Shown piece by piece: positions 12,460 to 47,109 of a DNA stretch of 64,000 nt. The translations under genes were made by a program, and so were the position numbers. Under the pieces are notes generated by a model that was not told the origin of the DNA, did no database searches, and was given only the letters and a program-made list of their open reading frames with translations. Position 1 is the first letter of the stretch; every line of letters starts with the position of its first letter. Origin of the DNA: a virus; the IMG/VR virus record IMGVR_UViG_3300028734_000011. One strand, 5' to 3'.

Positions 12460-13260
12460 ATGAATAAAGAAGAATTAATACAAGTGTTTGAAGACACAAA
12501 ATTACACAGTGAATGTATGTTGAAATCAGAAACTACTATACATTCATTTGATGATAGATTAATGCCAGATATTAGCATTCCTTGTCATGAAAACATACAA
12601 GTTATAAATTCTGATAGTGTATCTGCAGTTACAGAATATAGTAAATTAGGAAAAACTTGTGTTCTTAATATGGCATCATTTAAACGTCCAGGTGGAGGAG
12701 TTGCAAAAGGGTCCAAAGCACAGGAAGAATGCTTATTTAGATGCTCAAATTTGATTCATTTAATTAATACTGATAATTATCCATTGAATGATGATAACGC
12801 ATTATACACTAAAGATGCCACATTTTTCAAGGATGTATATTATAATTATATGAATGACGTTCAATCTGATGTTGTAACTATTGCAGCATTAAATCTTAGA
12901 AATGTTGATATTAATAGTCATTCTGATACAATAACAAGTGAAAATATATCATCAATAAATTCTGATGGAATAACAATATCAAATTGGGATTATGAACAAC
13001 TTACTAAGGAAAAAATAAGATTGATGTTATCACTTGCAATTAAAAATGATGTTGATATTATAATTTTAGGCTCATTCGGATGTGGAGTTTTCAAAAATGA
13101 TCCTGAAAAAATGGCTAAAATATTCAAGAAATTATTAGTAAATGAAGGATATTCTAAATATTTTGAAAAAGTAATATTTGCGATTATCAATGACAATAAC
13201 TCAGTAGGTAATAATTATGAAATTTTCAAAAATGTTTTTAGTGATTATAATTTAATTTAA
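12460..13260 (+). CDS. bacterial-type poly(ADP-ribose) glycohydrolase-like macrodomain protein (DUF2263-like)
   Basis: FKRPGGGVAKGSKAQEE matches the PARG signature GGG-x6-8-QEE; a second Gly-rich loop LGSFGCGVFKNDP is typical of the macro fold. Confidence 0.6.
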   Translation: MNKEELIQVFEDTKLHSECMLKSETTIHSFDDRLMPDISIPCHENIQVINSDSVSAVTEYSKLGKTCVLNMASFKRPGGGVAKGSKAQEECLFRCSNLIHLINTDNYPLNDDNALYTKDATFFKDVYYNYMNDVQSDVVTIAALNLRNVDINSHSDTITSENISSINSDGITISNWDYEQLTKEKIRLMLSLAIKNDVDIIILGSFGCGVFKNDPEKMAKIFKKLLVNEGYSKYFEKVIFAIINDNNSVGNNYEIFKNVFSDYNLI

Positions 13261-13269: not shown

Positions 13270-14022
13270 ATGAAAAATGCATTAAGTTTATTGCAGTCAA
13301 AAGCATTAGTAGACACTATTAACATGTTATATGATGATGGTGATTTAGCTATAATTTTACCAGAATTATATAACTTATACACAACTAATGATGGTCATAA
13401 AAATAATTATTACCACACATTAGGAGTACTTAATAATGTAATTAAATATGACAATGATAACTTAAAAATGAAAATTGTTGCATTATTACATGATATTGGA
13501 AAGATTTCTGTTAGATCTAAAAATGATGATGGAAATTGGACATTTCATGATCATGAAAATGTAGGAGCAAAAATGGTTAAAAAAATCTTGAAAAGATTTA
13601 ATATAACCAATAAGAAAACTATTGATTATGTTTACAGAATGGTTAAATATCATGGTAGAGTAAAAATGCACAGAGATGTAACAGAATCAGCTATAAGAAG
13701 GCTTGACGTGGAAGTTGGACCTGATATAGTATTAGAGTTGATTGAGTTCTGTAAGTGTGACATAACCACTAAATATGAAGATAAAAGACAACGTATTGTT
13801 TCAGGATTAGATGAAATAAAAAAAAGAATATTAGAAGTTCGTAACAAAGACAATGAATCTAAATGGCGTTCTCCAATAACAGGAATTATAATAATGAAAA
13901 TGTTAGGAATAACTACTGGTAGAATGGTTGGAGATATAAAGAAAGTAACTGATGAAAAAATAAAATCAGGTGAATGGACTGAAGATGATGCTATTAAATA
14001 CATTGAAACATTTAAGATATAA
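13270..14022 (+). CDS. HD-domain phosphohydrolase
   Basis: YYHTLGV...ALLHDIGK...HDHENVGAKMV: the H...HD...D metal-binding pattern of HD-superfamily enzymes (cf. HD domains of CCA enzymes and 2',3'-cyclic phosphodiesterases). Confidence 0.6.
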   Translation: MKNALSLLQSKALVDTINMLYDDGDLAIILPELYNLYTTNDGHKNNYYHTLGVLNNVIKYDNDNLKMKIVALLHDIGKISVRSKNDDGNWTFHDHENVGAKMVKKILKRFNITNKKTIDYVYRMVKYHGRVKMHRDVTESAIRRLDVEVGPDIVLELIEFCKCDITTKYEDKRQRIVSGLDEIKKRILEVRNKDNESKWRSPITGIIIMKMLGITTGRMVGDIKKVTDEKIKSGEWTEDDAIKYIETFKI

Positions 14023-23330: not shown

Positions 23331-23349
23331 TAAGCAAGATAATTAATAT

Positions 23350-23417: not shown

Positions 23418-23424
23418 TCATTGC

Positions 23425-23730: not shown

Positions 23731-23760
23731 CCATTAAATATGAATTGTGATTTTCTTTTT

Positions 23761-24813: not shown

Positions 24814-24816
24814 TTT

Positions 24817-24915
24817 CAATCTGAAATTTGATTTGTTTTTATTGTAGTTCAAAATTACAAAAAGTTTTTTGTTTTACCAAATATTTAATGTTAAAGTTTT
24901 GAACTTTTTTTATCA
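24817..24915. repeat. repeat module B, copy 4
   Basis: CAATCTGAAATTTGATTTGTTT + ATTGTAGTTCAAAATTACAAAAAGTTTTTTGTTTTACCAAATATTTAATGTTAAAGTTTTGAACT. Confidence 0.7.
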
Positions 24916-24952
24916 TTTTAAATTATGATTTTTTACAATCACTTTTCATTTG

Positions 24953-25105
24953 ATATTGTAGTGCAAAATTACAAAAAGTTTTTTGTTTTACCAAATATTT
25001 AATGTTAAAGTTTTGAACTTTATTTTCAAGTACTCTTACTTGATGTTTTTGTTTTGTTTGTAGTACAAAAGTATAAAAAGTTTTTGAAACTACCAAACAT
25101 TTATA
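24953..25105. repeat. repeat module B, copy 5 plus a degenerate sixth copy
   Basis: ATTGTAGTGCAAAATTACAAAAAGTTTTTTGTTTTACCAAATATTTAATGTTAAAGTTTTGAACT...CAAGTACTCTTACTTGA, then degenerate TGTAGTACAAAAGTATAAAAAGTTTTTGAAACTACCAAACATTT. Confidence 0.6.
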
Positions 25106-25124
25106 GATAAATTTTAAAATATTT

Positions 25125-25577
25125 TCAAATTTGAATATTTCTATTCCAAGGACGACCTATATTTCTATCACTTTTTGTTTTATGTTTTATAATTTTTTCA
25201 GATTCATCTAAATCTTCAAACCCATTATAATATTTACATAAATCATTCAATGAATAGAACACTAGTATATTATTAGTAATAGCAAATTCTACTTCATTGT
25301 CTGCTCCACTTGAATCTCCTGGTAATCTTAAAATGCAATCACACACTGGAATCCATTCAAAGTCCAATTTTAACCAATCTTCATATGGTCTTGGATGAGC
25401 CATATGCTGAAAATGTGAATATAATGGAGTAAATGGTACAAATCCTTTATTCATCAATTCATCTGCAGTATCCATTTGTGTTTTTACATTAACTGCAACA
25501 TCACCTTTTGTATATGGTGAAGCTATATAAACTTTAATCATATTTTTATTTCTTTTTTTTAATATATATGGTATCAT
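25125..25577 (-). CDS. nucleoside 2-deoxyribosyltransferase-like protein (tentative)
   Basis: 150 aa; KVYIASPYTKGD...FTPL...DW(L)..D...I..CD.ILRLPGDSSGADNEVEFA fits the Rossmann-like NDT/Rcl/DUF4406 pattern. Confidence 0.45.
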   Translation of the reverse strand: MIPYILKKRNKNMIKVYIASPYTKGDVAVNVKTQMDTADELMNKGFVPFTPLYSHFQHMAHPRPYEDWLKLDFEWIPVCDCILRLPGDSSGADNEVEFAITNNILVFYSLNDLCKYYNGFEDLDESEKIIKHKTKSDRNIGRPWNRNIQI

Positions 25578-27702: not shown

Positions 27703-28317
27703 TTGAAAAAAATTATCATGAAAAACTTATCAATATTATTAGTCTTTTTGTTTTTATCAATATTATCTTTTTCTCAAAGGACAAATGTTATAGTTAAAAA
27801 TGATATCTATACAGTATCATATAATGAAGTGTATAAACAGCCTAATTGGGTCATTTACTATATAACTAATGAATCAAAAAATGTATCAAGAGCAGGAATG
27901 AATTTTTATGAAGTACCAGGTATAATCACATCAACGAATGCTGATTATGTTCATAACGTATGGGATAAAGGACATTTAGCTCCTGCTGCAACATTTTCTG
28001 ATACAAAAAATCATTTATATGAAACTTTTTCATACCTTAATTGTTCGTTACAACGTGATTCATTAAATAGAGTAACTTGGGAACATTTAGAGAATTATGA
28101 AAGAACTATATTATTTAAAACTTATAAAAAATTGACAGTAAAAGTAGTTTTAGATTTTTCTGGTAAAATTATTATACTTAAATCTGGTGCTCATGTACCT
28201 AATGGATTTTACAAACAAATAATTACTCCCACAAATGATACATTAACATATTATTTTCCTAACTCTGTTCTACCTCATGATTTTTATTTTTATAGAATAA
28301 AAAATATAAAAATATAA
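27703..28317 (+). CDS. secreted DNA/RNA non-specific endonuclease (Serratia NucA / EndoG family)
   Basis: N-terminal signal peptide (MKKIIMKNLSILLVFLFLSILSFSQ); active-site motif NVWDKGHLAPAA (cf. DRGHxAP); followed by a terminator. Confidence 0.65.
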   Translation: MKKIIMKNLSILLVFLFLSILSFSQRTNVIVKNDIYTVSYNEVYKQPNWVIYYITNESKNVSRAGMNFYEVPGIITSTNADYVHNVWDKGHLAPAATFSDTKNHLYETFSYLNCSLQRDSLNRVTWEHLENYERTILFKTYKKLTVKVVLDFSGKIIILKSGAHVPNGFYKQIITPTNDTLTYYFPNSVLPHDFYFYRIKNIKI

Positions 28318-28419: not shown

Positions 28420-30063
28420 ATGTTAAGATATGATGATTATAATAAATTAAATGAGGCTTTCTTTCATCGAAGTAAAGATGAGTTAGAAAACCTCATACAT
28501 TCTTTTAAAAGTTTGATTATAAATTTAAAACAATCAATAGACAAAAAATATACTTTAGATTTCTATAAAAATCAAATCAAAGAAGATTTAGAATCATATA
28601 AGAAAAGTCTATTGAACAATTATAATAAAACAACAATTATTAAATTTAAGGATTTATTCAAAGATTTTTTAAATAATGTTGATAACGATATAATTAGGCA
28701 CATGAGATTAAATAAATTTGCGAATGATATATTAAAAATATATTCAATTAACAATTCATTTGATATTAATATAAAGAATGTAGATAGTGTTTTTAAAGCA
28801 TATGCTGATAACGTAGATCGATATATAGACAGTACATATGAATTTTTTTATGACAAAATAGAGACTGACAAATCATATGAGCCTTATAATAAGATAGATA
28901 TAAAAATAAATAAAGTTCCTCTTGATGAATATCAAAAAACTAAATATAAATATCAAATAGAGTTATTAAAATTACAGGAATGGATTACATACAATAACAA
29001 AAAGGTATTAATAATATTTGAAGGTAGAGATGCTGCAGGAAAAGGATCTGCAATTAGAAATATTACTAGGTTTCTTGATCCAAAACATTATAGAGTACAA
29101 ACATTTGGTATTCCGTCAGAAGAAGAAAGTGATAATTGGTTTGAAAGATATGAAAAAGTTTTACCAAAAAATGGTGAAATTGTTTTCTTTGATAGATCTT
29201 GGTATACAAGAGGTTACGTTGAACCAGTGATGAAATATTCAACAGATGATAAATACAATAAATTCATGAAAGAAGTTAATAACTTTGAGGATAAATTAAT
29301 TGATGATGATATTATACTTATAAAAATATGGTTCTCTATATCTCAGGATGTTCAAAAAATGAGATTTGAATTAAGAAAATCCAATCCATTGAAATATTGG
29401 AAATTTAGTAAGAATGATGAGCAAACGTTAGATAAGTGGGATGAGTTCACTAAATACATAAATGACATTTTCAAAAAAACAAATACAAAAGAATCACCTT
29501 GGATAATAATAGATGCTGACGATGAGAATTATTCAAGATTAGAATCATTTAACAGTATAATAAAAACTATTGAAAAAGATAAAGATAATACTAAAGAAGG
29601 CGGAATAAAAGTTGTATTTGAAGATATTGATGGACCTCTTATTCCTTATGATAAAACATCTGATACTGATTATCATAAATTTTTTAATGATCCAGAAAAA
29701 TGGAGTAAAACTGCAATGAGCAATTTAAACAAAATAATAGAAAAAACAGATGCAAAAGTTGTATTATCATCTTCATATAGAGATGATAAACCTTTAAGTG
29801 AGATTGAAAAAATGATGAAAGATGCAGGGTTTAAATATAAAATTTATGATGTTGTTCCAAATGACAAATCAAAAAAACGTGGTTCTGATATAAAAGATTG
29901 GTTGAAGAACAACAAATTTGTTAGCAATTTTATAATTATTGACGATAATAAGCATGACTTATATGATGTGTTCAGTAAAAAACATATTGTTAAAACTACT
30001 CATGAATTAGGTATAACAGATAGTATTGTTGATGAAGCTATTGAAAAATTAAATACCAAGTAA
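28420..30063 (+). CDS. polyphosphate kinase 2 (PPK2) domain fused to C-terminal HAD-like phosphatase domain
   Basis: PPK2 Walker A IIFEGRDAAGKGSAI and Walker B/lid VFFDRSWYTRG; C-terminal ~150 aa carry VVFEDIDGPL (DxDG, HAD motif I), VLSSS (motif II), K...GSD and IIIDDN (motifs III/IV). Confidence 0.6.
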   Translation: MLRYDDYNKLNEAFFHRSKDELENLIHSFKSLIINLKQSIDKKYTLDFYKNQIKEDLESYKKSLLNNYNKTTIIKFKDLFKDFLNNVDNDIIRHMRLNKFANDILKIYSINNSFDINIKNVDSVFKAYADNVDRYIDSTYEFFYDKIETDKSYEPYNKIDIKINKVPLDEYQKTKYKYQIELLKLQEWITYNNKKVLIIFEGRDAAGKGSAIRNITRFLDPKHYRVQTFGIPSEEESDNWFERYEKVLPKNGEIVFFDRSWYTRGYVEPVMKYSTDDKYNKFMKEVNNFEDKLIDDDIILIKIWFSISQDVQKMRFELRKSNPLKYWKFSKNDEQTLDKWDEFTKYINDIFKKTNTKESPWIIIDADDENYSRLESFNSIIKTIEKDKDNTKEGGIKVVFEDIDGPLIPYDKTSDTDYHKFFNDPEKWSKTAMSNLNKIIEKTDAKVVLSSSYRDDKPLSEIEKMMKDAGFKYKIYDVVPNDKSKKRGSDIKDWLKNNKFVSNFIIIDDNKHDLYDVFSKKHIVKTTHELGITDSIVDEAIEKLNTK

Positions 30064-31977: not shown

Positions 31978-32357
31978 AATACTTAAAAAAGTTTGAAAGT
32001 AGAGAGATATCAATAGATCCATATTTAAAAAAAATATATGTATCAAATAACGATTTTACTGATTTATATGATGAAATTAAAACTCTAACTAATTATAAAT
32101 TTGATTTTGAATTATATTATAGAGTAGATGAAAAATACATATTCAATATTATAGTATTTATTAAATCTAATGAGTATACAATGAGTAAATCTATGCATTA
32201 TTATGGTTATATACGTTATGATACATTAAAATCCCATATTAACACATCAGATGCAAATATTATGAAAAACTATTTAAATGAGTTAACAGATTGGACTCAT
32301 ATTAATAATAAAAATGATATTGAAACTGAAATCACTGCAAATAAATTTAATATATGA
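31974..32357 (+). CDS. cassette-family protein
   Basis: N-term MKYLKKFESR, C-term ANKFNI. Confidence 0.6.
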   Translation: MKYLKKFESREISIDPYLKKIYVSNNDFTDLYDEIKTLTNYKFDFELYYRVDEKYIFNIIVFIKSNEYTMSKSMHYYGYIRYDTLKSHINTSDANIMKNYLNELTDWTHINNKNDIETEITANKFNI

Positions 32358-32872
32358 AATACTTAAAAAAATATGAAAAATATGATGCATCTTTAGATTT
32401 GAATTATATATTAGATAGCGAAGTATATTCAGATTCTGATGCTATAAAATTATTAGAAAAGGTGAGATACGCTATTGATAATGATTGTGTTATTGATGAT
32501 ATAAATGTTCATTGGCTTGATAGAACACCTTTAATCGTGTGTTCGATTTCAGAGTGTCATATAAATAATAAAAGTTCTAATTATATTCATATATATAAAC
32601 AAATAGCAAAAGAATTAATAGATGCAGGAGCAAATATAGATTTAGTTGATCATGATGGTAGAAGTGCATTGATATGGGCAGCATCAAGAAAACATTTTGA
32701 TGTGATGGAATTATTAATTGAAGAAGGAGCAAATTGGAATATTCGTGATATATATCATTATGAATTTCATGAATATTTAACAAATGATGAATCAAAAAAA
32801 ATCATGAATAAATATCCTGATAAAAGTGAATTATATACTACTAAAAAAATAGCTAATAAATTTAACTTATGA
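32354..32872 (+). CDS. cassette-family protein, ankyrin-repeat subtype
   Basis: N-term MKYLKKYEKY, C-term ANKFNL; ANK (LIDAGANIDLVDHDGRSALIWAASRKHFDVMELLIEEGANWNI). Confidence 0.65.
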   Translation: MKYLKKYEKYDASLDLNYILDSEVYSDSDAIKLLEKVRYAIDNDCVIDDINVHWLDRTPLIVCSISECHINNKSSNYIHIYKQIAKELIDAGANIDLVDHDGRSALIWAASRKHFDVMELLIEEGANWNIRDIYHYEFHEYLTNDESKKIMNKYPDKSELYTTKKIANKFNL

Positions 32873-33360
32873 AACATATAGTTACATATACTCAGAAAGA
32901 ATTAAATTCTGAATTATTGGAATATTCAGAAAATAAAGCATCAACACAGAAAGTAAGAGAATTGATATTAGATGGTGCTGATGTAAATTGTTTTGATGCT
33001 AGTAAAAGTAGGACACCGTTAATTAAAGCAGTATTAAAATTAAATTACAGTATAATTAAATTATTAATTGAAAATAATGCTGATGTTAATTTAACAAATA
33101 GATTTAATGAAACTTGCTTATTTTTTATTACTCATAATGGTAATTATACATATAAAATATTAAAAAAAAATATTGATAATATTATTGATTTATTAATGAA
33201 ATCTGGAATTGATATGAAAATTGAAAATTTAAAGGGTGAAGATATATTTAGTAAAATTGATACATCAAATCCTATAATATTACAACATATAATAGAAACC
33301 TATCCTGAAAGATATAAAGAATATTTAATGAAAAAAACCGCAAATAAATTCAACATATGA
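32869..33360 (+). CDS. cassette-family protein, ankyrin-repeat subtype
   Basis: N-term MKHIVTYTQK, C-term ANKFNI; ANK (LILDGADVNCFDASKSRTPLIKAVLKLNYSIIKLLIENNADVNL). Confidence 0.65.
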   Translation: MKHIVTYTQKELNSELLEYSENKASTQKVRELILDGADVNCFDASKSRTPLIKAVLKLNYSIIKLLIENNADVNLTNRFNETCLFFITHNGNYTYKILKKNIDNIIDLLMKSGIDMKIENLKGEDIFSKIDTSNPIILQHIIETYPERYKEYLMKKTANKFNI

Positions 33361-34028: not shown

Positions 34029-34211
34029 ATGTATAAAACATTAGATATAATAAATAAAACAATTTTATTTTTCGCTTTGATTTGGTTAGCGTTATCATTA
34101 TGCGTAATAATTTTATTATCATTAATTAAAACTTTTTTAAAAATAACATATAACTCAATTAAGAATAAATTTAAATCAAAAAATGAAAAAAACATTACTG
34201 TGGCTAGATGA
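34029..34211 (+). CDS. small membrane protein (uncertain)
   Basis: 60-aa hydrophobic ORF. An antisense ORF 33977..34225 also exists, so coding strand is uncertain. Confidence 0.25.
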   Translation: MYKTLDIINKTILFFALIWLALSLCVIILLSLIKTFLKITYNSIKNKFKSKNEKNITVAR

Positions 34212-34521
34212 TTCTCGTGATCCATTAGAAAATGATTGGCTAGTTTTTAGCCCAATAGGAAGAGATGTTGATGTGAATTGGGTGACAACCCAAATGGAAT
34301 TTGAAGATTGGATAATGATTAATGGATTACCTGATGGTATATGTTTTGATCATGACTTAGGTACAGGCAATGGGGATGGATATGAATGTGCCAAATGGCT
34401 ATGTAGATACTGTGACAACAAAAGTTTAAAGATACCTTTATATGCTATGCAATCAGCTAATACAGTAGGTCGAGAAAATATTGATTGCTATTTAAAGAAT
34501 TACATGAAGCATTGTTATTAA
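34183..34521 (+). CDS. receiver (REC/CheY)-like domain protein (tentative)
   Basis: LLWLDDSRDP (acidic pocket DD), ICFDHDLG (putative phospho-acceptor Asp), YAMQSAN (conserved S/T position) resemble a response-regulator receiver fold; no output domain. Confidence 0.35.
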   Translation: MKKTLLWLDDSRDPLENDWLVFSPIGRDVDVNWVTTQMEFEDWIMINGLPDGICFDHDLGTGNGDGYECAKWLCRYCDNKSLKIPLYAMQSANTVGRENIDCYLKNYMKHCY

Positions 34522-34528: not shown

Positions 34529-34729
34529 ATGAAAACAGATAAAGAAAAAGAAATAAAGGAATTTGAAAATTGGAGGATAAGAGAAGAATTAAAACTTCAA
34601 ATTTTAGTTGCAATAAATAGTGCAGTTAAAAATTTTAAATCCACTACAATTGAAGGCTATAAGCCAACAAATAATGATATTAATTATGTTATAAGTGAAA
34701 TTTTAAATAAACGTTTAAAGAATAAATAA
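34529..34729 (+). CDS. hypothetical protein
   Basis: 66-aa ORF followed by a strong terminator. Confidence 0.35.
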   Translation: MKTDKEKEIKEFENWRIREELKLQILVAINSAVKNFKSTTIEGYKPTNNDINYVISEILNKRLKNK

Positions 34730-34768
34730 AAAAAGAGTTGTGACTTAAATCACAACTCTTTTTTTTTA
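34730..34768. terminator. bidirectional intrinsic terminator
   Basis: AAAAAAAGAGTTGTGActtaaaTCACAACTCTTTTTTTTT between convergent genes. Confidence 0.7.
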
Positions 34769-34769
34769 T

Positions 34770-35492
34770 TTATTTTTGAAATGAAGGTTTCAGCCACATC
34801 TTAGTATGATTAAATACATAATCTCTCAAAGTAGGAAATTCATTTAATACTAATATTGTTTTCAATGTATCAAATTTGAAACACTTAGTAAGTTCATCTT
34901 GAATTCTTTCACTTGAAACTACTTTCATTTTTGATTCATAATCATAATTTTTGATAGCAATTTCAATTTCATCAGTCATTCTGAATCCTTTTGTAATACA
35001 AAATCTCACACATCTTAAGATTCTTAGGGAATCCTCATCAAATGTAAGCTCACAAGGTCTTGGTGTTCTAAGAATTCCCATTTTAAGGTCTTTAACTCCA
35101 TCAAACAAATCAATCAATGTACCATTTTCATCAAGTGCCATCGCATTTAATGTGAAATCACGTCTGATTAAATCATCTTCAAGAGTACCAAGTTCTAAAA
35201 TTGGACGTCTTGTACCTTCATAATAACCAATTTCCTTTCTTGCCATTACAAAGTCTGCAGTCAAACCGTCATGTTTATGACCCTTTGGAAATTTTGCTTT
35301 AATTGTAAAACATCTTGGCGTTGAATTATAAATAGTATAACCATTTTTACGTAGCCATAACTCCATATCCATGAATCCAGATTCAACAGATTGATTCTTA
35401 TCATCCAATACAAAAGTAAAGTCAATGTCCTTACAATCAACTCCTAAGATACGGTCTCTGACCGCTCCACCTACTTCATAAATTTTTGGCAT
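34770..35492 (-). CDS. tRNA nucleotidyltransferase (CCA-adding) / poly(A) polymerase family head domain protein
   Basis: Class II nucleotidyltransferase motifs: YEVGGAVRDRILG, DIDF (metal-binding DxD), RRDFTLNAMA; 240 aa, head/neck only. Confidence 0.7.
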   Translation of the reverse strand: MPKIYEVGGAVRDRILGVDCKDIDFTFVLDDKNQSVESGFMDMELWLRKNGYTIYNSTPRCFTIKAKFPKGHKHDGLTADFVMARKEIGYYEGTRRPILELGTLEDDLIRRDFTLNAMALDENGTLIDLFDGVKDLKMGILRTPRPCELTFDEDSLRILRCVRFCITKGFRMTDEIEIAIKNYDYESKMKVVSSERIQDELTKCFKFDTLKTILVLNEFPTLRDYVFNHTKMWLKPSFQK

Positions 35493-35659
35493 AATTTTAT
35501 TTTTATTTAATATATTTAAATTCTAGTTTATCTGAAAATTCATTAATATCCTGAGCCAATGCTATAAGTAAGAATCCTACTAATATAACGCAAGTAAAAA
35601 TTCCAATAAATCCTAATAACAAAGAAAATAATCTTAATAATACTATTATAAATCTCATT

Positions 35660-35902
35660 TCAATTTTTTTTATTTTTTAATAAATTATAAGAAATTATTA
35701 TTATTGTAATTAGAACAAAAAAAGTAAAAAATGTTCCTAATCCAAAAACCACATAATTCTCAATACACTTATAAGTTGAATAATAATGTATATTATATAA
35801 ATCATGAGTAATTTTAATTCCACCAATCATACATGAAAACATATATCCATACATGATAAATAATAAAAAATTAAAAAATAATTTAAAAATTTTTTCTTTC
35901 AT
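35660..35902 (-). CDS. small membrane protein
   Basis: 80 aa with two hydrophobic helices. Confidence 0.35.
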   Translation of the reverse strand: MKEKIFKLFFNFLLFIMYGYMFSCMIGGIKITHDLYNIHYYSTYKCIENYVVFGLGTFFTFFVLITIIIISYNLLKNKKN

Positions 35903-35910
35903 AATATGAA

Positions 35911-36177
35911 TTATTTAAAAATATATCCTTCTGGAAACTTTTTTCTACATTCTGAACCAACTCCCATAACCCATGCATCAGGATATGATTCTTTATCATC
36001 AGCTTTATACATTGCGCCGCCGTATATTGAATTAATGAAATATTTTGGTGTTTTTAATGCTTTACCACAACATGGACAATGCTCCATATTCATATAATCT
36101 GCTCTATCTCTATTAGAATCAAACATATCATAATTATCAATTGTAGGAATATTAATAATATCGTTAGGCTCTTTCAT
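35911..36177 (-). CDS. hypothetical Cys-containing protein
   Basis: 88 aa; MEHCPCCGKALK...GSECRKK; the antisense + ORF 35906..36097 is rejected. Confidence 0.4.
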   Translation of the reverse strand: MKEPNDIINIPTIDNYDMFDSNRDRADYMNMEHCPCCGKALKTPKYFINSIYGGAMYKADDKESYPDAWVMGVGSECRKKFPEGYIFK

Positions 36178-36213
36178 ATTGCTGTTTATTTTTTAATTAC
36201 AATACAAAGGTAT

Positions 36214-36250
36214 ATAAAAAGCCTTGAATATAAAATATTCAAGGCTTAAT
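36214..36250. terminator. bidirectional intrinsic terminator
   Basis: AAAAAGCCTTGAATAtaaaATATTCAAGGCTT. Confidence 0.65.
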
Positions 36251-36270
36251 TTAATATATTTTAATAAAAA

Positions 36271-37209
36271 TTAGAAAAAATTAGAGGCATCAACATATTT
36301 AAAGCCACATCGTTTAGCGAATGTTTTATCACTTGTCAAATCTCCAACCATTATACATTGTGATGGATCAAGTTTATATTTCTCAATGAATTCAACTCCA
36401 AAGCCAACTCCTGGCTTTCTACAATAGCAAGTGATTGGAGGAACAGAGTGCCCGCAATATTTATAATCAATATTAACTCCTAACATTTCATTTGTCTTTT
36501 CAAAACATTCTATTGCAGTCTCATGAGTTAATAATCCTTTTGCTATACCACTTTGATTTGAAACACCAAGTAATATATAACCTTGACTCTGTAATTCTAA
36601 AAGTTTTTCTGTTCTACCAGGAATTATTTCAATATCACTAATATCTGTTGGATAATGTCCTCCACTTTTCGTTAATCTCAAAGTGCCGTCATAATCAAAG
36701 AAGATTGCTTTATTTTTATACTCTGATGGATATCTTTTGAAATCTATTTTTTCTATATCATCAATACCTTCTGATAATTCTGGTGTTTCAAAATGTTTAT
36801 TCATTTTATAAAGTGCAGCTACAGGAAACATATGTGGATCATTAACTTTAGAATAATCACTTAATTCTGTAAATAATCTATCATATTTTCTTATCATTCT
36901 TGTTACCTGATTGAACATACAATCTTCAATCTTTGTGGTGAAATAAAGGCAAATTATATAGTAGTCATATTTTTTTGCTAATTCAATAACTTCAGAACGA
37001 GATAACTTAGTTGTATATGTACCATCTAATACAATATCAACACCATCTATCATCAGTGCTTCAAGTTTCTTATTAAGTGAAATTAATGTACCACCTTCAA
37101 TATCTCTTGATAATAAGGTGTAATTATAATCAACATAAGATTCAACAATACCTGATTTACCTGCAGCAGGTAATCCACAAGTCATAACTAATCTTTTTTC
37201 TTCTTTCAT
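36271..37209 (-). CDS. pnk: polynucleotide 5'-kinase / 3'-phosphatase (T4 Pnk-like)
   Basis: N-terminal P-loop kinase VMTCGLPAAGKSG; C-terminal HAD phosphatase with IFFDYDGTL (DxDGT), LGVSNQSG, CRKPGVG, MVGDLTSD. Domain order kinase-then-phosphatase as in T4 Pnk. Confidence 0.8.
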   Translation of the reverse strand: MKEEKRLVMTCGLPAAGKSGIVESYVDYNYTLLSRDIEGGTLISLNKKLEALMIDGVDIVLDGTYTTKLSRSEVIELAKKYDYYIICLYFTTKIEDCMFNQVTRMIRKYDRLFTELSDYSKVNDPHMFPVAALYKMNKHFETPELSEGIDDIEKIDFKRYPSEYKNKAIFFDYDGTLRLTKSGGHYPTDISDIEIIPGRTEKLLELQSQGYILLGVSNQSGIAKGLLTHETAIECFEKTNEMLGVNIDYKYCGHSVPPITCYCRKPGVGFGVEFIEKYKLDPSQCIMVGDLTSDKTFAKRCGFKYVDASNFF

Positions 37210-37212: not shown

Positions 37213-38427
37213 TTAATACCTATAATTGTTCCATTTATTATTTTCATCTACAACACGGCCGTTTTTATCATAATAATAGTTATTTAATATTACATATACA
37301 GATAATCCTAATGATACAATAAGTATAATTATAAACAACCAAATTTGCTGTGCGCTACTCAAATCAACATCAATATATTCAAAATCTTTAAATTGTTTTC
37401 GTTGCCAATATTTTGGTATATTACTTTCTGTCCAATTAGCTAATTCTTCTAAATTCAATTTAGTTTTACCATTATAGTAACTTCTAAAATTAACTTCAAA
37501 TGTTGGTTTATCACTCCAAGAGAATGCATCTACCCATTGTATATTTTTAGATATAGAATCAAGTCCAAAACACAGAACAAGTTCATTCTTATTACCACCT
37601 AACCAATAACTTTGTTGCTCTTTTACTATTGAACGAGATTTATTATAATAGAACATTAAAAATACTCTTATTTGATTTTTTTGACCATAATATCCATTAA
37701 TATATTGCCAAGATTTTAATTCTTTTAAAGTTGGTTTGTAGCCTAAAAATGGTGATTGATCATTAGTACCACTTCCACTTGAGAACATACCATTAGAACC
37801 ATCATTATTTGAATATAAATTTGGATAATCATATAATCCATCTTCTTTTGCTACTTTCTTTGATATTTTTGAGAATCCAAATATAGAATATGAACTATTA
37901 ATTTTATTTGTATATGAGTGTTCGGTTGTGATAGTTTTTGAGCTATAAATATTATTGTCCCATTTAATATTATACATATTACCATCATTATTATAAAAAT
38001 CTCTGTTCATATCTACAAATATTTTACGAGCATTCCAGGATTTTAATAATTTATAATATTCATCTTTTGATATTTCTTGTTCCTTACCATTTGATAATAC
38101 TTGTGTCCAATGTTCAGGATGGTCATCTCTATGAGAACAATCATATGATTCACTATGAGATTTACCATTACCATCATCTACTGTTCTTGAGCAAGTTTCT
38201 GTAATCCATTCGTCCCAAAATTCATAATCATGTGCCTCAGTAACATAATCACCAAAGTACTCTGTTGCTTGCGTTCTACTATGAATCATCACTGTACTAA
38301 TAATTAGTGTTAGCAATAAGGTTGGTACAATAACTATTAGATATTCCCACCAAACAACTTTTGTTCTGAAAAAAATAAAGATAAAAATAGCAATTACAAT
38401 TGGAATAAAATAAATGATTGTCGTCAT
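37213..38427 (-). CDS. membrane protein (N- and C-terminal TM helices, large central domain)
   Basis: 404 aa; N-terminal IIYFIPIVIAIFIFIFF and LIVIVPTLLLTLIISTV, C-terminal IWLFIIILIVSLGLSVYVIL; 3 nt from the pnk stop. Confidence 0.5.
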   Translation of the reverse strand: MTTIIYFIPIVIAIFIFIFFRTKVVWWEYLIVIVPTLLLTLIISTVMIHSRTQATEYFGDYVTEAHDYEFWDEWITETCSRTVDDGNGKSHSESYDCSHRDDHPEHWTQVLSNGKEQEISKDEYYKLLKSWNARKIFVDMNRDFYNNDGNMYNIKWDNNIYSSKTITTEHSYTNKINSSYSIFGFSKISKKVAKEDGLYDYPNLYSNNDGSNGMFSSGSGTNDQSPFLGYKPTLKELKSWQYINGYYGQKNQIRVFLMFYYNKSRSIVKEQQSYWLGGNKNELVLCFGLDSISKNIQWVDAFSWSDKPTFEVNFRSYYNGKTKLNLEELANWTESNIPKYWQRKQFKDFEYIDVDLSSAQQIWLFIIILIVSLGLSVYVILNNYYYDKNGRVVDENNKWNNYRY

Positions 38428-40933: not shown

Positions 40934-41557
40934 TTATACTTCAAATCCATTTATATAGATATTATTAATCAAAAAGTTATCAATTTTATTTAAATTTTCA
41001 ATAGGATAAATTAATATATTATAATCAACATTAATAACATTGTTTCTTTTTCCTATTTTATTTCTTTTGTATTCAATATTTAGAATTGACATTTCTTTCT
41101 CTAATTCTTCTAAAGAATACTCAGATGATATGAAATGAATATTATAAATTTTTGAATGATGAAAAGTATCAAATATATTCTCAAACTTAAAAAATACAAT
41201 CATAACTAATAATACGACCAATAGAACAAAGGCTGCTAATGTATAATTTTGAAACCCTATGCACATACCTATTGCGGATGCCATCCAAATGATTGCAGCA
41301 GAAGTTATACCACGAATATTTCCACCTTCTTTAAAAACAACCCCAGCACCAATAAAACCAATTCCAGTAACTATGTTTGATGCTATTCTATCTCCACTCA
41401 CCAAATTAACTGATAATATGGTAAATACACATGAACTAACACAAATTAATATCATTGTCTTAAATCCTGCAGGTTTTCCATGAAATCCACGTTCTATTCC
41501 TAATATAGATCCAGCGAATAGTGAAGCTAATATTTGTATGATATATTCTGGTAACAT
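40934..41557 (-). CDS. MgtC/SapB-family membrane protein
   Basis: N-terminus MLPEYIIQILASLFAGSILGIERGFHGKPAGFKTMILICVSS matches the MgtC signature (..LGxEReF...AGxRT..L); multiple TM helices. Confidence 0.6.
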   Translation of the reverse strand: MLPEYIIQILASLFAGSILGIERGFHGKPAGFKTMILICVSSCVFTILSVNLVSGDRIASNIVTGIGFIGAGVVFKEGGNIRGITSAAIIWMASAIGMCIGFQNYTLAAFVLLVVLLVMIVFFKFENIFDTFHHSKIYNIHFISSEYSLEELEKEMSILNIEYKRNKIGKRNNVINVDYNILIYPIENLNKIDNFLINNIYINGFEV

Positions 41558-46215: not shown

Positions 46216-47109
46216 ATGAAAGATTTAGAATTAAAAAAATTAGTACATTCAACTATTGACAACACAATCAAGTATATTTTTTATACAGAGGATAAATTAA
46301 TAATTGAATTTTCTTATATCAATAAGAATGATGGTAAAAATATTATTTGCTGTCCAGTTTCAACATTTTGCTCAATAGGATGCAAATTTTGTCATACAGC
46401 AGAATATGTTGGTAAAATTAAAAATAGAAATCTAACATCATTTGAAATTTCTAATGGAGTTAATTATATTTATAATGATTTAAAATTATCTGAAAACCCA
46501 AAAACTTTATTAATAAGTTTCATGGGTATTGGTGAAATTGTAACAAATGTTGATGAAGTTGTAGAATCAATGATAAATATTCAAAATACTTATCTGAAAG
46601 ATATATACGTTAGATTCGCATTTGCAACATCTTTACCTGAATCTCACAGTATTGAATTTTTCAAATTAACAAATAAAATAGCTAAAAACAATTTGCCTGT
46701 TAAGTTGCATCTATCTTTACATTATACTACAAATGAGCAGAGAGTTCAGTGGATGCCAAGATCAATGAAAATTGAACCGACCATTGCAGCAGTAGATTAT
46801 TATAAATCTATGACAGGAAATAGTGTTGAAATACATTATGCTCTAATAGAGAATGTAAATGATAAATCAGAAGATGCTATGAGATTAACTAATCTTATTA
46901 AAGACAAAGGATTTGATGTTAAATTTTTATTCTATAACAAGAAAGATAATATAGACGCTGAACCATCAAACATTTCTAAAATTAAAGTATTTTCAGATAT
47001 ATTTAGTCTTGTTGGAATTAAACATGAATATTACATACCTCCTGGACTAGAAATTGGAAGTTCTTGTGGGTTACTATCCATAAATGAGTATATTAAAATA
47101 AAAGATTAA
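46216..47109 (+). CDS. radical SAM enzyme, RlmN/Cfr-like (tentative)
   Basis: CPVSTFCSIGCKFCHTAEY contains CxxxCxxC with a CKFC.T context resembling RlmN (..GCxLxCKFCxT); 297 aa. Confidence 0.5.
   Translation: MKDLELKKLVHSTIDNTIKYIFYTEDKLIIEFSYINKNDGKNIICCPVSTFCSIGCKFCHTAEYVGKIKNRNLTSFEISNGVNYIYNDLKLSENPKTLLISFMGIGEIVTNVDEVVESMINIQNTYLKDIYVRFAFATSLPESHSIEFFKLTNKIAKNNLPVKLHLSLHYTTNEQRVQWMPRSMKIEPTIAAVDYYKSMTGNSVEIHYALIENVNDKSEDAMRLTNLIKDKGFDVKFLFYNKKDNIDAEPSNISKIKVFSDIFSLVGIKHEYYIPPGLEIGSSCGLLSINEYIKIKD

What the first reader, a model, noticed from the sequence alone, without database searches (positions are those of the whole stretch)
34770..37209. RNA end-healing toolkit: T4-type Pnk and a CCA-adding-family nucleotidyltransferase, with HD and RlmN-like partners elsewhere
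- A kinase-phosphatase Pnk (36271-37209) and a class-II nucleotidyltransferase head domain (34770-35492) lie about 800 nt apart.
- An HD phosphohydrolase (13270-14022), a radical-SAM RlmN-like protein (46216-47109) and the tRNA-like cluster are also present.
- By analogy with T4 Pnk/Rnl countering PrrC, this suggests repair of tRNAs damaged by host anticodon nucleases or 3'-end trimming.
- No RNA ligase (KxDG motif protein) is visible in this window.
Basis: partly seen in the sequence, partly recalled or inferred. Interest (0 to 1): 0.6.

Follow-up and report, generated by a model that had tools for sequence, protein, structure and literature searches.

The report
Phage RNA-end repair genes, split CCA enzyme
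A huge phage carries a loose set of genes that most likely clean up broken RNA ends and rebuild the CCA tail of tRNAs, including a CCA-adding enzyme split into two separate genes; this is a variant of an already described phage counter-defence theme, not a new kind of system.

Summary
ORFs at the exact coordinates encode a kinase + HAD-phosphatase (36271-37209, -) and a 240-aa class-II nucleotidyltransferase (34770-35492, -), both with all catalytic motifs invariant across their families.

Corrections:
1. The Pnk is T4-like only in domain order. By sequence it is PNKP-kinase-like plus HAD-IIIA (T4 Pnk E=0.11).
2. The HD protein (13270-14022) is not a generic HD. It is the C-terminal body/tail half of the same CCA-enzyme family: the two ORFs tile TIGR02692 at positions 30-220 and 217-461, 21 kb apart on opposite strands.
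3. Missed partners: cREC (34183-34521), PPK2 fused to a 'Swiss-army-knife' RNA-repair HAD (28420-30063), and a Metallophos (61745-62446).
4. The 'tRNA-like cluster' is one atypical tRNA gene plus weak candidates.

Context supports RNA repair. In 7 of 8 NTase lineages sampled, the short NTase lies within 10 kb of 3'-phosphoesterases, cREC, kinases or RNA ligases. In one lineage it lies next to an unrelated, true T4-type Pnk.

No RNA ligase is in the window. A link between the RlmN-like gene and repair is unproven.

Verdict: a variant of the phage RNA-repair modules already described for jumbo phages. Moderate interest.

The parts
36271..37209 (-). Bifunctional kinase-phosphatase ('Pnk'): N-terminal P-loop kinase (PNKP-kinase-like, AAA_33) + C-terminal HAD-IIIA phosphatase with DxDGT and a Cys3His Zn loop
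   Evidence: Pfam AAA_33 5.9e-10 + PNK3P 2.2e-9. TIGR01662 83.5 bits > 44.6; TIGR01663 1.5e-24. PDB best hit is mammalian PNKP at 3.5e-17, both domains aligned but in swapped order. Family invariants: G17 K18, R35 D36, D172 x D174, S217 N218 Q219, R264 K265 P266, G289 D290...D294, C252 x H254...C261 x C263. T4 Pnk reached only at E=0.11.
34770..35492 (-). Short (240 aa) class-II tRNA-nucleotidyltransferase-family enzyme: head + neck domains only, with its own conserved C-terminus (WLKP)
   Evidence: PF01743 9e-20. phrog_24229 8e-69. TIGR02692 positions 30-220 of 466. Motifs A-E invariant. AF2 pLDDT 91. Foldseek top 46 hits are all class-II CCA/A/CC-adding enzymes or PAP, TMq 0.65-0.73 and TMt 0.35-0.50. 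The top 150 clusters at 50% identity are nearly all 225-280 aa.
   Evidence: PF20274 2.4e-17, 63.8 bits > 27. Invariant D9 D10 and D56 H57 D58 across 40-87% identical copies. Stays next to the NTase in L001-L009 and L043, and within 4-8 kb in L045 and L047.
34728..34765 (.). Bidirectional intrinsic-terminator hairpin between the convergent NTase and orf66/cREC genes
   Evidence: 17-pair stem followed by T-runs on both strands (8 terminator-like sites found against 1.0 +/- 1.0 expected). This also explains the sub-threshold 'sraA' Rfam hit at 34725-34810.
36219..36247 (.). Terminator-like hairpin between Pnk and the downstream Zn-ribbon ORF; Pnk and NTase may be separate transcription units
   Evidence: 13-pair stem.
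35503..36177 (-). Three small co-directional ORFs between Pnk and NTase: an 88-aa Cys-rich (Zn-ribbon-like) protein at 35911-36177, an 80-aa TM protein at 35660-35902 and a 51-aa TM protein at 35503-35658. Function unknown; syntenic.
   Evidence: ORFs. No Pfam or PHROG hit for the 88-aa ORF. Conserved in L001-L009, and the 88-aa ORF also in L043.
28420..30063 (+). 547-aa fusion: unknown N-terminal region (1-168) + PPK2 polyphosphate-kinase-family P-loop kinase (169-390) + 'Swiss-army-knife' RNA-repair HAD phosphatase (398-535)
   Evidence: PF03976 1.1e-72 and PF18143 1.3e-23. TIGR03707 2.8e-80. Syntenic 5-6 kb from the NTase in L001-L009. A stand-alone SAK-HAD directly follows the NTase in L010.
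13270..14022 (+). HD-domain protein = C-terminal (body/tail, HD-containing) half of a class-II CCA-adding/repair enzyme, encoded separately
   Evidence: TIGR02692 positions 217-461 of 466, 2e-39; NF008137 'multifunctional CCA addition/repair protein' 8.9e-10. phrog_2244 positions 186-380. PDB 3WFO residues 230-500. AF2 pLDDT 92.6. All 17 significant Foldseek hits are 3WFO-3WFS; generic HD hydrolases score E >= 0.16. Invariant H49, H74 D75, H95, H128, D164.
12460..13260 (+). Microbial PARG-type macro-domain protein ending 10 nt before the HD half (possible ADP-ribose-processing partner; link inferred only)
   Evidence: PF10021 1.4e-19. TIGR02452 115.9 bits > 50.
61745..62446 (-). Calcineurin-like metallophosphoesterase, homologous to the one linked to NTase, cREC and RNA ligase in another phage lineage
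   Evidence: PF00149 2.2e-11. 34% identity, 7e-30, to the L047 Metallophos.
60931..61030 (-). Atypical tRNA(-like) gene without an encoded 3'-CCA (candidate substrate). Weaker candidates at 60413-60499 and 60520-60586.
   Evidence: Rfam tRNA 36.8 bits with a 35-nt insertion. ARAGORN finds it only in intron mode, as Leu(CAG) with a 23-nt insert. The discriminator base is followed by CAG, not CCA.
46216..47109 (+). RlmN/Cfr-family radical-SAM methyl-synthase-like protein lacking the N-terminal ~75-residue domain (claimed partner; functional link not supported)
   Evidence: TIGR00048 4.5e-36, positions 75-344 of 355, 124.5 bits < 290. PDB RlmN/Cfr about 1e-14, with CxxxCxxC and both mechanistic Cys aligned. 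Conserved in L043.

Best explanation
The genes form a loosely clustered RNA-end repair and tRNA 3'-tail restoration toolkit of a huge phage.

Proposed mechanism:
1. Host (or competitor) ribonucleases damage tRNAs or other RNAs, leaving 2',3'-cyclic-phosphate or 3'-phosphate and 5'-OH ends, or trimmed CCA tails.
2. 3'-end healing. cREC (cyclic phosphate to monoester), the HAD phosphatase of Pnk, the SAK-HAD of the PPK2 fusion, the HD domain and possibly the Metallophos together regenerate a 3'-OH.
3. Tail rebuilding. The 240-aa class-II nucleotidyltransferase (catalytic head plus the neck that templates CTP/ATP) re-adds the missing C-C-A nucleotides. It may be guided to the acceptor/T-arm by the separately encoded HD-body/tail half. 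It would also mature phage tRNA-like transcripts, which lack an encoded CCA.
4. The Pnk kinase (and possibly PPK2) phosphorylates 5'-OH ends, so that internal breaks can be sealed by a ligase that is not in this window.

Shown: domain identities, intact catalytic residues, the head+neck / body+tail complementarity, and the conserved and recurrent gene neighbourhoods.
Inferred: substrates, order of steps, the physical partnership of the two CCA halves, and the biological trigger.
For: Active sites are intact.
- Pnk invariants G17-K18, R35-D36, D172xD174, SNQ, RKP, GDxxxD.
- NTase motifs A-E are invariant, and the flexible loop is only 2 residues shorter than in BstCCA.
- HD motif invariant. cREC aspartates invariant.

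The two ORFs complement each other.
- They tile TIGR02692 at 30-220 and 217-461.
- The structure models match the N-terminal half and the C-terminal half of class-II tRNA nucleotidyltransferases respectively.
- Body and tail are the tRNA acceptor/T-helix binding part (PMC3925840).
- Both halves are on all nine related IMG/VR contigs. Homologs of the NTase, Pnk and HD half share the same longest-contig lengths: 177,597, 346,561 and 711,471 bp.

Context.
- Pnk, NTase, cREC and PPK2-SAK-HAD are syntenic in 9 relatives.
- In divergent lineages the orthologous short NTase is directly followed by a SAK-HAD (L010), by a Metallophos-like protein (L045/46), or by a true T4/Pnkp1-type Pnk unrelated to the window's Pnk (L019: 4XRP 2.7e-25, 1LTQ 2.2e-16; BLASTP against the window Pnk E=0.85).
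- It lies within 2-8 kb of RNA ligases in three lineages and of cREC in four.

Literature.
- The same component set (PNK-HAD, SAK-HAD, cREC, CCA-adding enzyme) is predicted to act in jumbo-phage RNA repair (PMC7824862, PMC9503650).
- tRNA CCA-tail cleavage is now a demonstrated anti-phage mechanism (PMC12851939).
- The phage tRNA-like genes lack an encoded CCA.
Against: - No RNA ligase in the 64-kb window in any frame, nor in about 60 kb of relatives' loci. A profile scan for ligases did not return the relatives' contigs (capped at 80 loci).
- The Pnk phosphatase domain scores higher against GmhB/HisB-type small-molecule phosphatases (43 bits) than against the PNKP phosphatase (36 bits), and carries their Zn loop.
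- Pnk is absent from the syntenic position in L043, a 76% relative. Pnk-family neighbourhoods in two distant lineages show no repair genes.
- A terminator-like hairpin separates Pnk from the NTase string.
- The two CCA halves are 21 kb apart on opposite strands and are never adjacent in any lineage examined.
- The short NTase family is far larger than the HD-half family, so most short NTases work without this partner.
- cREC, PARG, NMNAT and PPK2 also fit nucleotide / ADP-ribose counter-signalling.
- All functional assignments are by homology and context. There is no expression or biochemical data.
Confidence: 0.6

Rival explanations
1. Housekeeping tRNA maturation. The NTase (with or without the HD half) simply adds CCA to phage-encoded tRNAs/tRNA-like RNAs whose genes lack CCA. 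Pnk, cREC and the others serve unrelated purposes, and their proximity is incidental.
For: - The window's tRNA-like genes lack an encoded CCA.
- Phage CCA-type NTases are widely annotated even in small T7-like phages with no repair genes discussed (PMC7693777).
- Pnk is missing at this position in L043.
- A hairpin separates Pnk from the NTase string.
Against: - The short NTase recurs next to 3'-phosphoesterases of three superfamilies, two unrelated Pnks, cREC and RNA ligases in 7 of 8 lineages sampled. Simple maturation, which starts from a 3'-OH, does not predict this.
- Only one to three atypical tRNA genes are in the window, 25 kb away.
Confidence: 0.18
2. Small-molecule / nucleotide-signal counter-defence. 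cREC, PARG-macro, HD, PPK2, NMNAT and the GmhB-like phosphatase of 'Pnk' degrade or recycle host immune nucleotides (cyclic or ADP-ribose-derived) or restore NAD+/NTP pools. The NTase is a bystander.
For: - cREC and macro domains are also predicted to process ADPr>P and cADPR-type molecules (PMC9503650).
- NadD/NMNAT at 54044-54661.
- Distant Pnk-family neighbourhoods contain NADAR, PARP and PRPP synthetase.
- The Pnk phosphatase is closest to GmhB/HisB and has their Zn loop.
Against: - The kinase domain's only significant solved relative is the PNKP polynucleotide kinase.
- The SAK-HAD family is defined by RNA-repair contexts (PF18143).
- The NTase-centred linkage to RNA ligases and to a true T4-type Pnk is not explained.
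- The two readings are not mutually exclusive.
Confidence: 0.13
3. DNA end repair. The Pnk is a PNKP-like DNA 5'-kinase/3'-phosphatase serving phage DNA replication or repair, for example after host nuclease attack, and is unrelated to the NTase.
For: - The best solved relatives are mammalian PNKP, a DNA repair enzyme.
- TIGR01664 DNA-3'-Pase gives a weak hit.
- A non-specific DNA/RNA endonuclease lies at 27703-28317.
Against: - No DNA ligase or polymerase lies beside it.
- Its neighbours are RNA-directed (NTase, cREC).
- An unrelated RNA-repair-type Pnk (Pnkp1/T4) occupies the analogous position in another lineage.
- Scores are far below the PNKP equivalog cut-off (86 against 503 bits).
Confidence: 0.07

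Closest known systems
Jumbo-phage RNA-repair gene sets described by comparative genomics (Iyer et al. 2021, PMC7824862; Iyer et al. 2022, PMC9503650): PNK-HAD, 'Swiss-army-knife' HAD, cREC, CCA-adding enzyme, RNA ligases
   Same: The same component families occur in the same kind of genome (a huge or jumbo phage): kinase-HAD fusion, SAK-HAD, cREC and a CCA-type Pol-beta NTase. NAD-salvage and macro genes are nearby.
   Different: No ligase within 64 kb. The CCA-type enzyme is split into a head/neck gene and an HD-body/tail gene. The SAK-HAD is fused to a PPK2 kinase. These papers, as far as I could search them, do not mention PPK2 or a split CCA enzyme (0 occurrences of 'PPK2').
Bacterial multifunctional CCA-adding/repair enzyme with a C-terminal HD domain (E. 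coli Cca type NF008137; actinobacterial type TIGR02692; solved relative 3WFO-3WFS)
   Same: Together the two ORFs cover the whole model, with catalytic motifs A-E and the HD motif intact. From my own knowledge (Yakunin et al. 2004), the E. coli HD domain has 2',3'-cyclic phosphodiesterase and phosphatase activities, which fits 3'-end healing before CCA addition.
   Different: It is two polypeptides, encoded 21 kb apart on opposite strands. Each scores far below the equivalog cut-off (102.5 and 135.5 bits against 438.8). The short half has its own conserved C-terminal WLKP motif and belongs to a large clade of stand-alone ~240-aa proteins.
Phage T4 Pnk (PseT) + Rnl1/Rnl2 pathway countering the PrrC anticodon nuclease
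   Same: Kinase-then-phosphatase order with the DxDGT motif at almost the same position (query 165 aligns with T4 158). Catalytic residues are conserved. It is a phage-encoded counter-measure context.
   Different: No significant sequence similarity to T4 Pnk (E=0.11; no PF25109 hit). The phosphatase is HAD-IIIA with a Zn loop. No Rnl gene was found. A true T4/Pnkp1-type Pnk does sit next to the orthologous NTase in another lineage.
Mammalian PNKP (1YJ5, 3ZVL)
   Same: Best solved relative of both domains. The P-loop, catalytic Asp and DxDGT all align.
   Different: Domain order is reversed (PNKP is FHA-phosphatase-kinase). No FHA domain. 86 bits against a cut-off of 503 for TIGR01663. PNKP is a DNA-repair enzyme.
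Bacterial (alpha-beta)2 GlyRS beta-subunit
   Same: A precedent for an HD domain related to the class-II CCA-enzyme body domain acting as a separate tRNA acceptor-arm-binding subunit beside a catalytic subunit (PMC8464048).
   Different: The GlyRS HD has lost its catalytic His-Asp, whereas the phage HD half keeps it. This is an analogy only, not homology-based membership.

Membership tests
Class-II CCA-adding enzyme (tRNA nucleotidyltransferase) | Head domain with motif A (GGxVRD...DxD catalytic carboxylates) and motif B (RRD) | tested here: met
Class-II CCA-adding enzyme (tRNA nucleotidyltransferase) | Neck domain with motif D (EDxxR protein template for CTP/ATP) and motif E | tested here: met
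   [E/D]153 D154 x L156 R157...R160...R163 F164 and E195 R196 I197...E200 L201 x K203 are invariant.
Class-II CCA-adding enzyme (tRNA nucleotidyltransferase) | Flexible loop of CCA/A-adding length (short in CC-adding enzymes) | tested here: inconclusive
   The loop aligns to the BstCCA loop with a 2-residue gap, and G89/Y90/G93-T94-R95 are conserved. No CC-adding reference was aligned explicitly for length.
Class-II CCA-adding enzyme (tRNA nucleotidyltransferase) | Body and tail domains (tRNA acceptor/T-helix binding) in the same polypeptide; passes the curated equivalog score | tested here: not met
   The 240-aa protein covers model positions 30-220 of 466 only, at 102.5 bits < 438.8. Foldseek TMt is 0.35-0.50. 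The body/tail is encoded separately at 13270-14022.
Class-II CCA-adding enzyme (tRNA nucleotidyltransferase) | Template-independent addition of C74-C75-A76 to tRNA | not testable with these tools
   Needs an enzyme assay. The head/neck alone cannot distinguish CCA-adding from poly(A) polymerase; CCA models outscore pcnB by about 30 bits.
T4 polynucleotide kinase (PseT) family | N-terminal P-loop 5'-kinase followed by a C-terminal DxDGT 3'-phosphatase, with catalytic residues present | tested here: met
   Kinase at residues 7-158 and phosphatase at 165-306. Invariant K18, D36, D172 and D174.
T4 polynucleotide kinase (PseT) family | Detectable sequence homology to T4 Pnk / Pfam HAD_PNKP (PF25109) | tested here: not met
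   1LTQ E=0.11, 14.9 bits, DxDGT segment only. No PF25109 hit at E<=0.01. No T4-like phage among the tblastn hits. BLASTP against a true T4-type Pnk (L019) gives E=0.85.
T4 polynucleotide kinase (PseT) family | Works with a cognate RNA ligase (Rnl1/Rnl2) | tested here: not met
   No ligase family in any window ORF or frame. The rest of the genome was not available.
HAD-IIIA hydrolase subfamily | Passes the curated TIGR01662 cut-off; four HAD motifs | tested here: met
   83.5 bits > 44.6. Motifs I-IV are invariant.
Eukaryotic-type PNKP (TIGR01663) | FHA-phosphatase-kinase architecture; passes the equivalog cut-off | tested here: not met
   86.3 bits < 502.8. Domain order is reversed and there is no FHA domain.
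cREC (PF20274) | Passes the Pfam gathering score; Rec-like acidic active-site residues; no histidine-kinase partner; RNA-repair/NAD context | tested here: met
   63.8 bits > 27. D9 D10 and D56 H57 D58 are invariant. Neighbours are an NTase, a Pnk and, in other lineages, ligases.
'Swiss-army-knife' RNA-repair HAD (PF18143) | Passes the Pfam gathering score | tested here: met
   84.3 bits > 27.5 at residues 398-535 of the 547-aa protein.
RlmN/Cfr radical-SAM methyl synthases | CxxxCxxC cluster plus the two mechanistic Cys; N-terminal accessory domain; passes the equivalog cut-off | tested here: inconclusive
   The cluster and both Cys align to RlmN. However, the protein lacks model positions 1-74 and scores 124.5 < 290.
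   PADLOC gives no hit. CdnE scores E=0.011 and TM 0.29, against CCA enzymes at E about 1e-14 and TM about 0.7.

The most novel reading that the evidence does not exclude
The abundant ~240-aa head+neck nucleotidyltransferases are a dedicated phage counter-defence enzyme class. They rebuild tRNA 3' tails after attack by tail- or acceptor-targeting immune nucleases (for example the Cas12a3 type). This would be a ligase-independent repair route in which interchangeable 3'-phosphoesterases (cREC, SAK-HAD, Metallophos, Pnk-HAD, HD) first regenerate a 3'-OH. In this huge-phage clade the enzyme works as a two-subunit CCA enzyme, with tRNA recognition and a cyclic-phosphodiesterase supplied in trans by the separately encoded HD-body/tail protein.
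Probability: 0.25. Interest if true: 0.75.

Novelty: new variant of a known kind. Interest (0 to 1): 0.45.

Why it matters
Phage RNA-repair gene sets have been predicted by comparative genomics but barely tested outside T4.

This locus adds two concrete, testable points.
1. A large, stable family of minimal class-II nucleotidyltransferases lacks the tRNA-binding body and tail, yet is consistently wired to RNA 3'-end-healing enzymes.
2. In at least one huge-phage clade, the missing half survives as a separate, catalytically intact HD protein.

tRNA CCA-tail cleavage has just been shown to be an immune strategy. [quoted passage not shown] These genes are obvious candidates for that resistance and could be tested directly. 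The short enzymes could also inform how the body and tail control CCA specificity.

If the function is only routine CCA maturation of phage tRNAs, the finding is ordinary.

Tried and rejected
1. Looked for an RNA ligase. Pfam on all 93 ORFs of 100 aa or more, PHROGs on those without a Pfam hit, tblastn and a ligase HMM on all six frames, and a KxDG motif scan (chance hits only) found none.
2. Tried to find a ligase elsewhere in the relatives' 181-330 kb contigs with a ligase-profile scan of IMG/VR. L125, from the same sample series, proved to belong to a different phage lineage.
3. Tested whether the two CCA halves are adjacent in other lineages. They are not, in three huge-phage contigs. Co-occurrence beyond this clade could not be tested because whole contigs cannot be fetched.
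4. 'tRNA-like cluster' in the ORF-poor 22.1-25.1 kb region. Rejected: no tRNA or Rfam signal. The region holds a GOLLD RNA and two interspersed repeat families.
5. CBASS/CRISPR NTase reading. Rejected.
6. A sub-threshold 'sraA' Rfam hit at 34725-34810. Explained as the intrinsic terminator.
7. The original RNA-repair comparative-genomics paper (Burroughs & Aravind 2016) is not held in the library, so its statements on SAK-HAD and PPK2 could not be checked.
8. One literature search for truncated CCA enzymes returned only head-and-neck cancer papers.
9. Pnk-family neighbourhoods in two distant lineages gave no RNA-repair signal.

Full report
SETTING

The window is 23.4% G+C and densely packed with short co-directional ORFs. 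Only distant nucleotide matches exist in GenBank phages: Cellulophaga and Tenacibaculum phages, and a 595-kb uncultured phage. Proteins identical or 85-93% identical to the window's Pnk, NTase and HD proteins lie on contigs of 177,597, 346,561 and 711,471 bp, and on IMG/VR viral contigs of 181-330 kb. This is a segment of a huge phage.

OBSERVATION CHECK

The 312-aa product of 36271-37209 (-) is an AAA_33 P-loop kinase (res 7-108) followed by a PNK3P/HAD phosphatase (168-294). It passes the curated HAD-IIIA model: TIGR01662, 83.5 bits against a cut-off of 44.6. Its best solved relatives are mammalian PNKP (3.5e-17). Both domains align, but in the opposite order: query 165-250 to the PNKP phosphatase, query 6-158 to the PNKP kinase. 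In an alignment of 15 family members down to 48% identity, the following are invariant:
- the P-loop G17-K18 and the kinase R35-D36;
- the phosphatase motifs D172-x-D174(-G-T), S217-N218-Q219, R264-K265-P266 and G289-D290...D294.

The 240-aa product of 34770-35492 (-) has the PolyA_pol head domain (9e-20). It matches a 245-position PHROG annotated 'tRNA nucleotidyltransferase' end to end, at 8e-69. The two genes are 778 nt apart, and the gap holds three small ORFs.

The HD protein (13270-14022) and the radical-SAM protein (46216-47109) are also real. The latter is an RlmN/Cfr relative: TIGR00048 at 4.5e-36, and PDB RlmN/Cfr at about 1e-14 with the CxxxCxxC cluster and both mechanistic cysteines aligned. 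It lacks the first ~75 model positions and scores below the equivalog cut-off.

CORRECTION 1: 'T4-TYPE' PNK

T4 Pnk (1LTQ) is reached only at E=0.11 (14.9 bits), across the DxDGT segment alone. Pfam's HAD_PNKP model (PF25109) does not hit at E<=0.01. A tblastn against 50,697 phage records returns seven records, none T4-like.

The family also carries an invariant C252-x-H254...C261-x-C263 set. From my knowledge this is the Zn loop of GmhB/HisB-type HAD-IIIA phosphatases. The phosphatase domain alone scores higher against GmhB (43 bits) than against the PNKP phosphatase (36 bits).

The protein therefore has the T4 architecture and chemistry, but it belongs to a different, large family of ~310-aa kinase-HAD-IIIA fusions (1,298 hits at E<=1e-5).

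CORRECTION 2: THE NTASE AND THE HD PROTEIN ARE TWO HALVES OF ONE ENZYME TYPE

Against NCBIfam TIGR02692 (CCA tRNA nucleotidyltransferase, 466 positions):
- the NTase matches positions 30-220 (2.2e-29);
- the HD protein matches positions 217-461 (2e-39).

The same tiling appears on phrog_2244, at 4-200 and 186-380 of 392. The HD protein also matches the E. coli-type 'multifunctional CCA addition/repair protein' model at 8.9e-10. By sequence it aligns to residues 230-500 of PDB 3WFO.

Structure models are confident: pLDDT 91.0 and 92.6.
- NTase model. Its top 46 Foldseek hits are all class-II CCA-, A- or CC-adding enzymes or bacterial poly(A) polymerase. TM is 0.65-0.73 over the query but only 0.35-0.50 over the targets, so it covers about half of a full enzyme.
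- HD model. All 17 of its significant hits are the 3WFO-3WFS series. These are deposited as 'tRNA processing enzyme' and are most likely the A. aeolicus CC-adding enzyme of Yamashita et al. 2014, as described in PMC3925840. Generic HD hydrolases score E>=0.16.

In the NTase family, motifs A-E are all invariant: GGxxRD, DxD, RRDxTxNA, D...G, [E/D]DxLRxxRxxRF and ERIxxELxK. An invariant C-terminal W-L-K-P is specific to the family. The flexible loop is only two residues shorter than in the B. stearothermophilus CCA enzyme. In the HD half, H49, H74-D75, H95, H128 and D164 are invariant.

Neither half is a decayed fragment.
- Short NTase. The 150 best clusters (50% identity) in an exhaustive search of 1.84 billion representatives are nearly all 225-280 aa, down to 36% identity.
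- HD half. It forms a ~250-aa family found on contigs of up to 723 kb.

CORRECTION 3: MISSED PARTNERS
- cREC. The ORF convergent with the NTase, 34183-34521 (+), is a cREC domain: PF20274 'cyclic-phosphate processing receiver', 63.8 bits against a cut-off of 27. The acidic pair D9-D10 and the triad D56-H57-D58 are invariant.
- PPK2-SAK-HAD. 28420-30063 (+) is a 547-aa fusion of a PPK2-family kinase (1.1e-72) to PF18143 'HAD domain in Swiss Army Knife RNA repair proteins' (1.3e-23).
- Metallophos. 61745-62446 (-) is a calcineurin-like phosphoesterase, 34% identical (7e-30) to one that sits with the NTase, cREC and an RNA ligase in another phage.
- PARG-type macro. 12460-13260 (+) ends 10 nt before the HD half.
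- NadD/NMNAT lies at 54044-54661.

CORRECTION 4: THE 'tRNA-LIKE CLUSTER'

ARAGORN with defaults finds nothing. Rfam finds one tRNA at 60932-61030 (-) with a 35-nt insertion in the anticodon region, and a sub-threshold tRNA-Sec-model hit at 60414-60499. ARAGORN's intron mode calls the first a tRNA-Leu(CAG) with a 23-nt insert. Permissive settings add 60413-60498 and 60520-60586. In the two candidates whose 3' flanks I printed (60931-61030 and 60413-60498) no 3'-CCA is encoded; the third (60520-60586) was not inspected.

The ORF-poor 21.6-25.1 kb stretch is not tRNA-like. It contains a full-length GOLLD RNA (274.8 bits) and interspersed repeats.

CONTEXT IN RELATIVES

Nine close relatives keep the order Pnk, Zn-ribbon ORF, small TM ORFs, NTase, orf66, cREC, with PPK2-SAK-HAD 5-6 kb away and the HD half about 20 kb away.

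A 76%-identical relative (L043) keeps the NTase, cREC and the RlmN-like gene but has no Pnk at this position. It has a Vsr-like homing endonuclease inserted between the NTase and cREC. NTase-cREC is therefore the conserved core, and Pnk adjacency is lineage-specific.

More divergent lineages are the most informative:
- L045/L046 (NTase 64%): Metallophos, RNA ligase (PF09414), Band_7, NTase, a second Metallophos-like protein directly downstream, a small AAA_33 kinase, cREC.
- L047/L048 (62%): NAMPT, cREC, RNA ligase, Metallophos, NTase.
- L010 (60%): the NTase is directly followed by a SAK-HAD (PF18143, 1.8e-20).
- L017-L022 (50%): two ligases upstream, and the NTase is directly followed by a kinase-phosphatase. 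That protein is a true T4/Pnkp1-type Pnk (PF25109 1.8e-23; PDB 4XRP 2.7e-25; T4 1LTQ 2.2e-16 over its full length). It has no significant similarity to the window's Pnk (BLASTP E=0.85).

Overall, 7 of 8 lineages sampled have at least one RNA-end-processing gene within 10 kb of the NTase. Repeated association with non-homologous enzymes of the same chemistry is the strongest argument for functional coupling.

WHAT WAS NOT FOUND

No RNA ligase is present in the window by any of these tests:
- Pfam on all ORFs of 100 aa or more;
- PHROGs;
- a ligase HMM on all six frames, best E 0.45.

No Tpt1, 2H, RlaP or RtcB family appeared either.

The HD half is not adjacent to a PolyA_pol gene in three other huge-phage contigs. 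Pnk-family neighbourhoods in two distant lineages show NADAR, PARP and PRPP-synthetase genes rather than repair genes. Terminator-like hairpins are enriched (8 against 1.0 +/- 1.0 expected). One lies right after the NTase, and one lies between Pnk and the NTase gene string.

MECHANISM

The best-supported reading is a toolkit for RNA-end healing and tRNA 3'-tail restoration.
- Several phosphoesterases would regenerate a 3'-OH from cyclic or monoester phosphates: cREC, Pnk-HAD, SAK-HAD, HD and Metallophos.
- The head/neck NTase would re-add C, C and A. In this clade it may be guided by the separately encoded HD-body/tail protein.
- The Pnk kinase would prepare 5' ends for a ligase encoded elsewhere, if there is one.

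This matches the component list predicted for jumbo-phage RNA repair (PMC7824862, PMC9503650). A separately encoded, HD-containing, CCA-body-like tRNA-binding subunit has a structural precedent in the GlyRS beta-subunit (PMC8464048).

tRNA CCA-tail cleavage by Cas12a3 is now a demonstrated anti-phage mechanism with no known viral counter (PMC12851939). That makes 3'-tail repair a timely hypothesis, but it is inference only.

Shown here: domain identities, intact active sites, the complementarity of the two halves, and the recurrent neighbourhoods. Inferred: substrates, order of reactions, heteromer formation, and the trigger.

RIVALS
- Plain CCA maturation of phage tRNAs.
- Nucleotide / ADP-ribose counter-signalling, in which the GmhB-like phosphatase acts on small molecules.
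- DNA-end repair.

None of these explains the NTase-centred linkage to ligases and to two unrelated Pnks as well as RNA repair does. The second is not exclusive of it.

NOVELTY

The gene class (phage CCA-type NTases) and the system class (phage RNA repair with PNK-HAD, SAK-HAD and cREC) are already described. The short family is already labelled in PHROGs.

Three things appear undescribed in the literature I could search:
- the split of the CCA enzyme into dispersed head/neck and HD-body/tail genes;
- the PPK2-SAK-HAD fusion;
- the systematic wiring of the minimal NTase to 3'-end-healing enzymes.

I rate it a new variant of a known kind, of moderate interest.

Noticed in passing
window 21681-22103 (-): Full-length GOLLD RNA (Rfam RF02032, 274.8 bits against a gathering score of 150, model positions 1-416). 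About 92% conserved at the nucleotide level in relative L024. Its function is unknown in the literature; here it sits in a huge phage, far (39 kb) from the only tRNA-like genes.
   Followed up: partly
window 22100-25130: A 3-kb ORF-poor stretch next to GOLLD with two interspersed repeat families: about 98 nt x6 (23425, 23734, 24472, 24813, 24927, 25029) and about 63 nt x6 (22999, 23090, 23260, 23356, 23668, 24751). No Rfam or tRNA signal. Multi-copy in relatives too. Possibly repeated promoter/terminator units or an unknown ncRNA array.
   Followed up: partly
window 60413-61030 (-): Atypical tRNA-like genes. 60931-61030 has normal acceptor, D and T arms but about 35 extra nt in the anticodon region (ARAGORN calls it only in intron mode, as Leu-CAG with a 23-nt insert). 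60414-60499 is a weak tRNA-Sec-model hit (29.5 bits). The two whose 3' flanks were inspected (60931-61030, 60413-60498) lack an encoded CCA.
   Followed up: partly
window 4300-5318, 18637-19203, 32354-33360 and two smaller ORFs: At least five to seven ankyrin-repeat proteins and one LRR protein in 64 kb, which is unusual for a phage.
   Followed up: no
window 12460-13260 (+) and 13270-14022 (+): A microbial PARG-type macro-domain gene ends 10 nt before the HD half of the CCA enzyme. This suggests a link between ADP-ribose processing and tRNA-end repair, or de-ADP-ribosylation of RNA.
   Followed up: no
window 28420-28923 (+): The N-terminal 168 residues of the PPK2-SAK-HAD fusion match no Pfam or PHROG family. 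The PPK2 + RNA-repair HAD fusion itself is not mentioned in the two comparative-genomics papers searched.
   Followed up: partly
window 36271-37209 (-), residues 235-263: The Pnk family carries an invariant Cys/His set (C235, C252, H254, C261, C263) resembling the Zn loop of GmhB/HisB phosphatases. T4 Pnk is not known to have this feature (from memory).
   Followed up: partly
L043 10746-11618 (-): In a 76% relative, a 290-aa Vsr-like (homing-endonuclease-like) gene is inserted between the NTase and cREC, and Pnk is absent from the syntenic position. This is evidence of modular turnover at the locus.
   Followed up: partly
window 54044-54661 (-), 40934-41557 (-), 27703-28317 (+), 14178-15047 (+), 3593-4294 (+): Other auxiliary genes: NadD/NMNAT (TIGR00482, 133.8 bits > 112.45), an MgtC-family protein, a non-specific DNA/RNA endonuclease, an SDR epimerase/dehydratase, and an endonuclease VII-like protein.
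   Followed up: no
window 37213-38427 (-): A 404-aa protein with N- and C-terminal TM segments directly upstream of Pnk (phrog_2087, unknown function, 8e-40). Syntenic in relatives, and apparently split into two ORFs in L043.
   Followed up: no
L134 13407-18194 and L135 11624-12370: In two other huge-phage contigs (669 and 617 kb) the stand-alone HD half lies 1-4 kb from a Metallophos gene. In L134 it also lies near two radical-SAM genes and a methyltransferase, echoing the window's HD / Metallophos / RlmN-like set.
   Followed up: no
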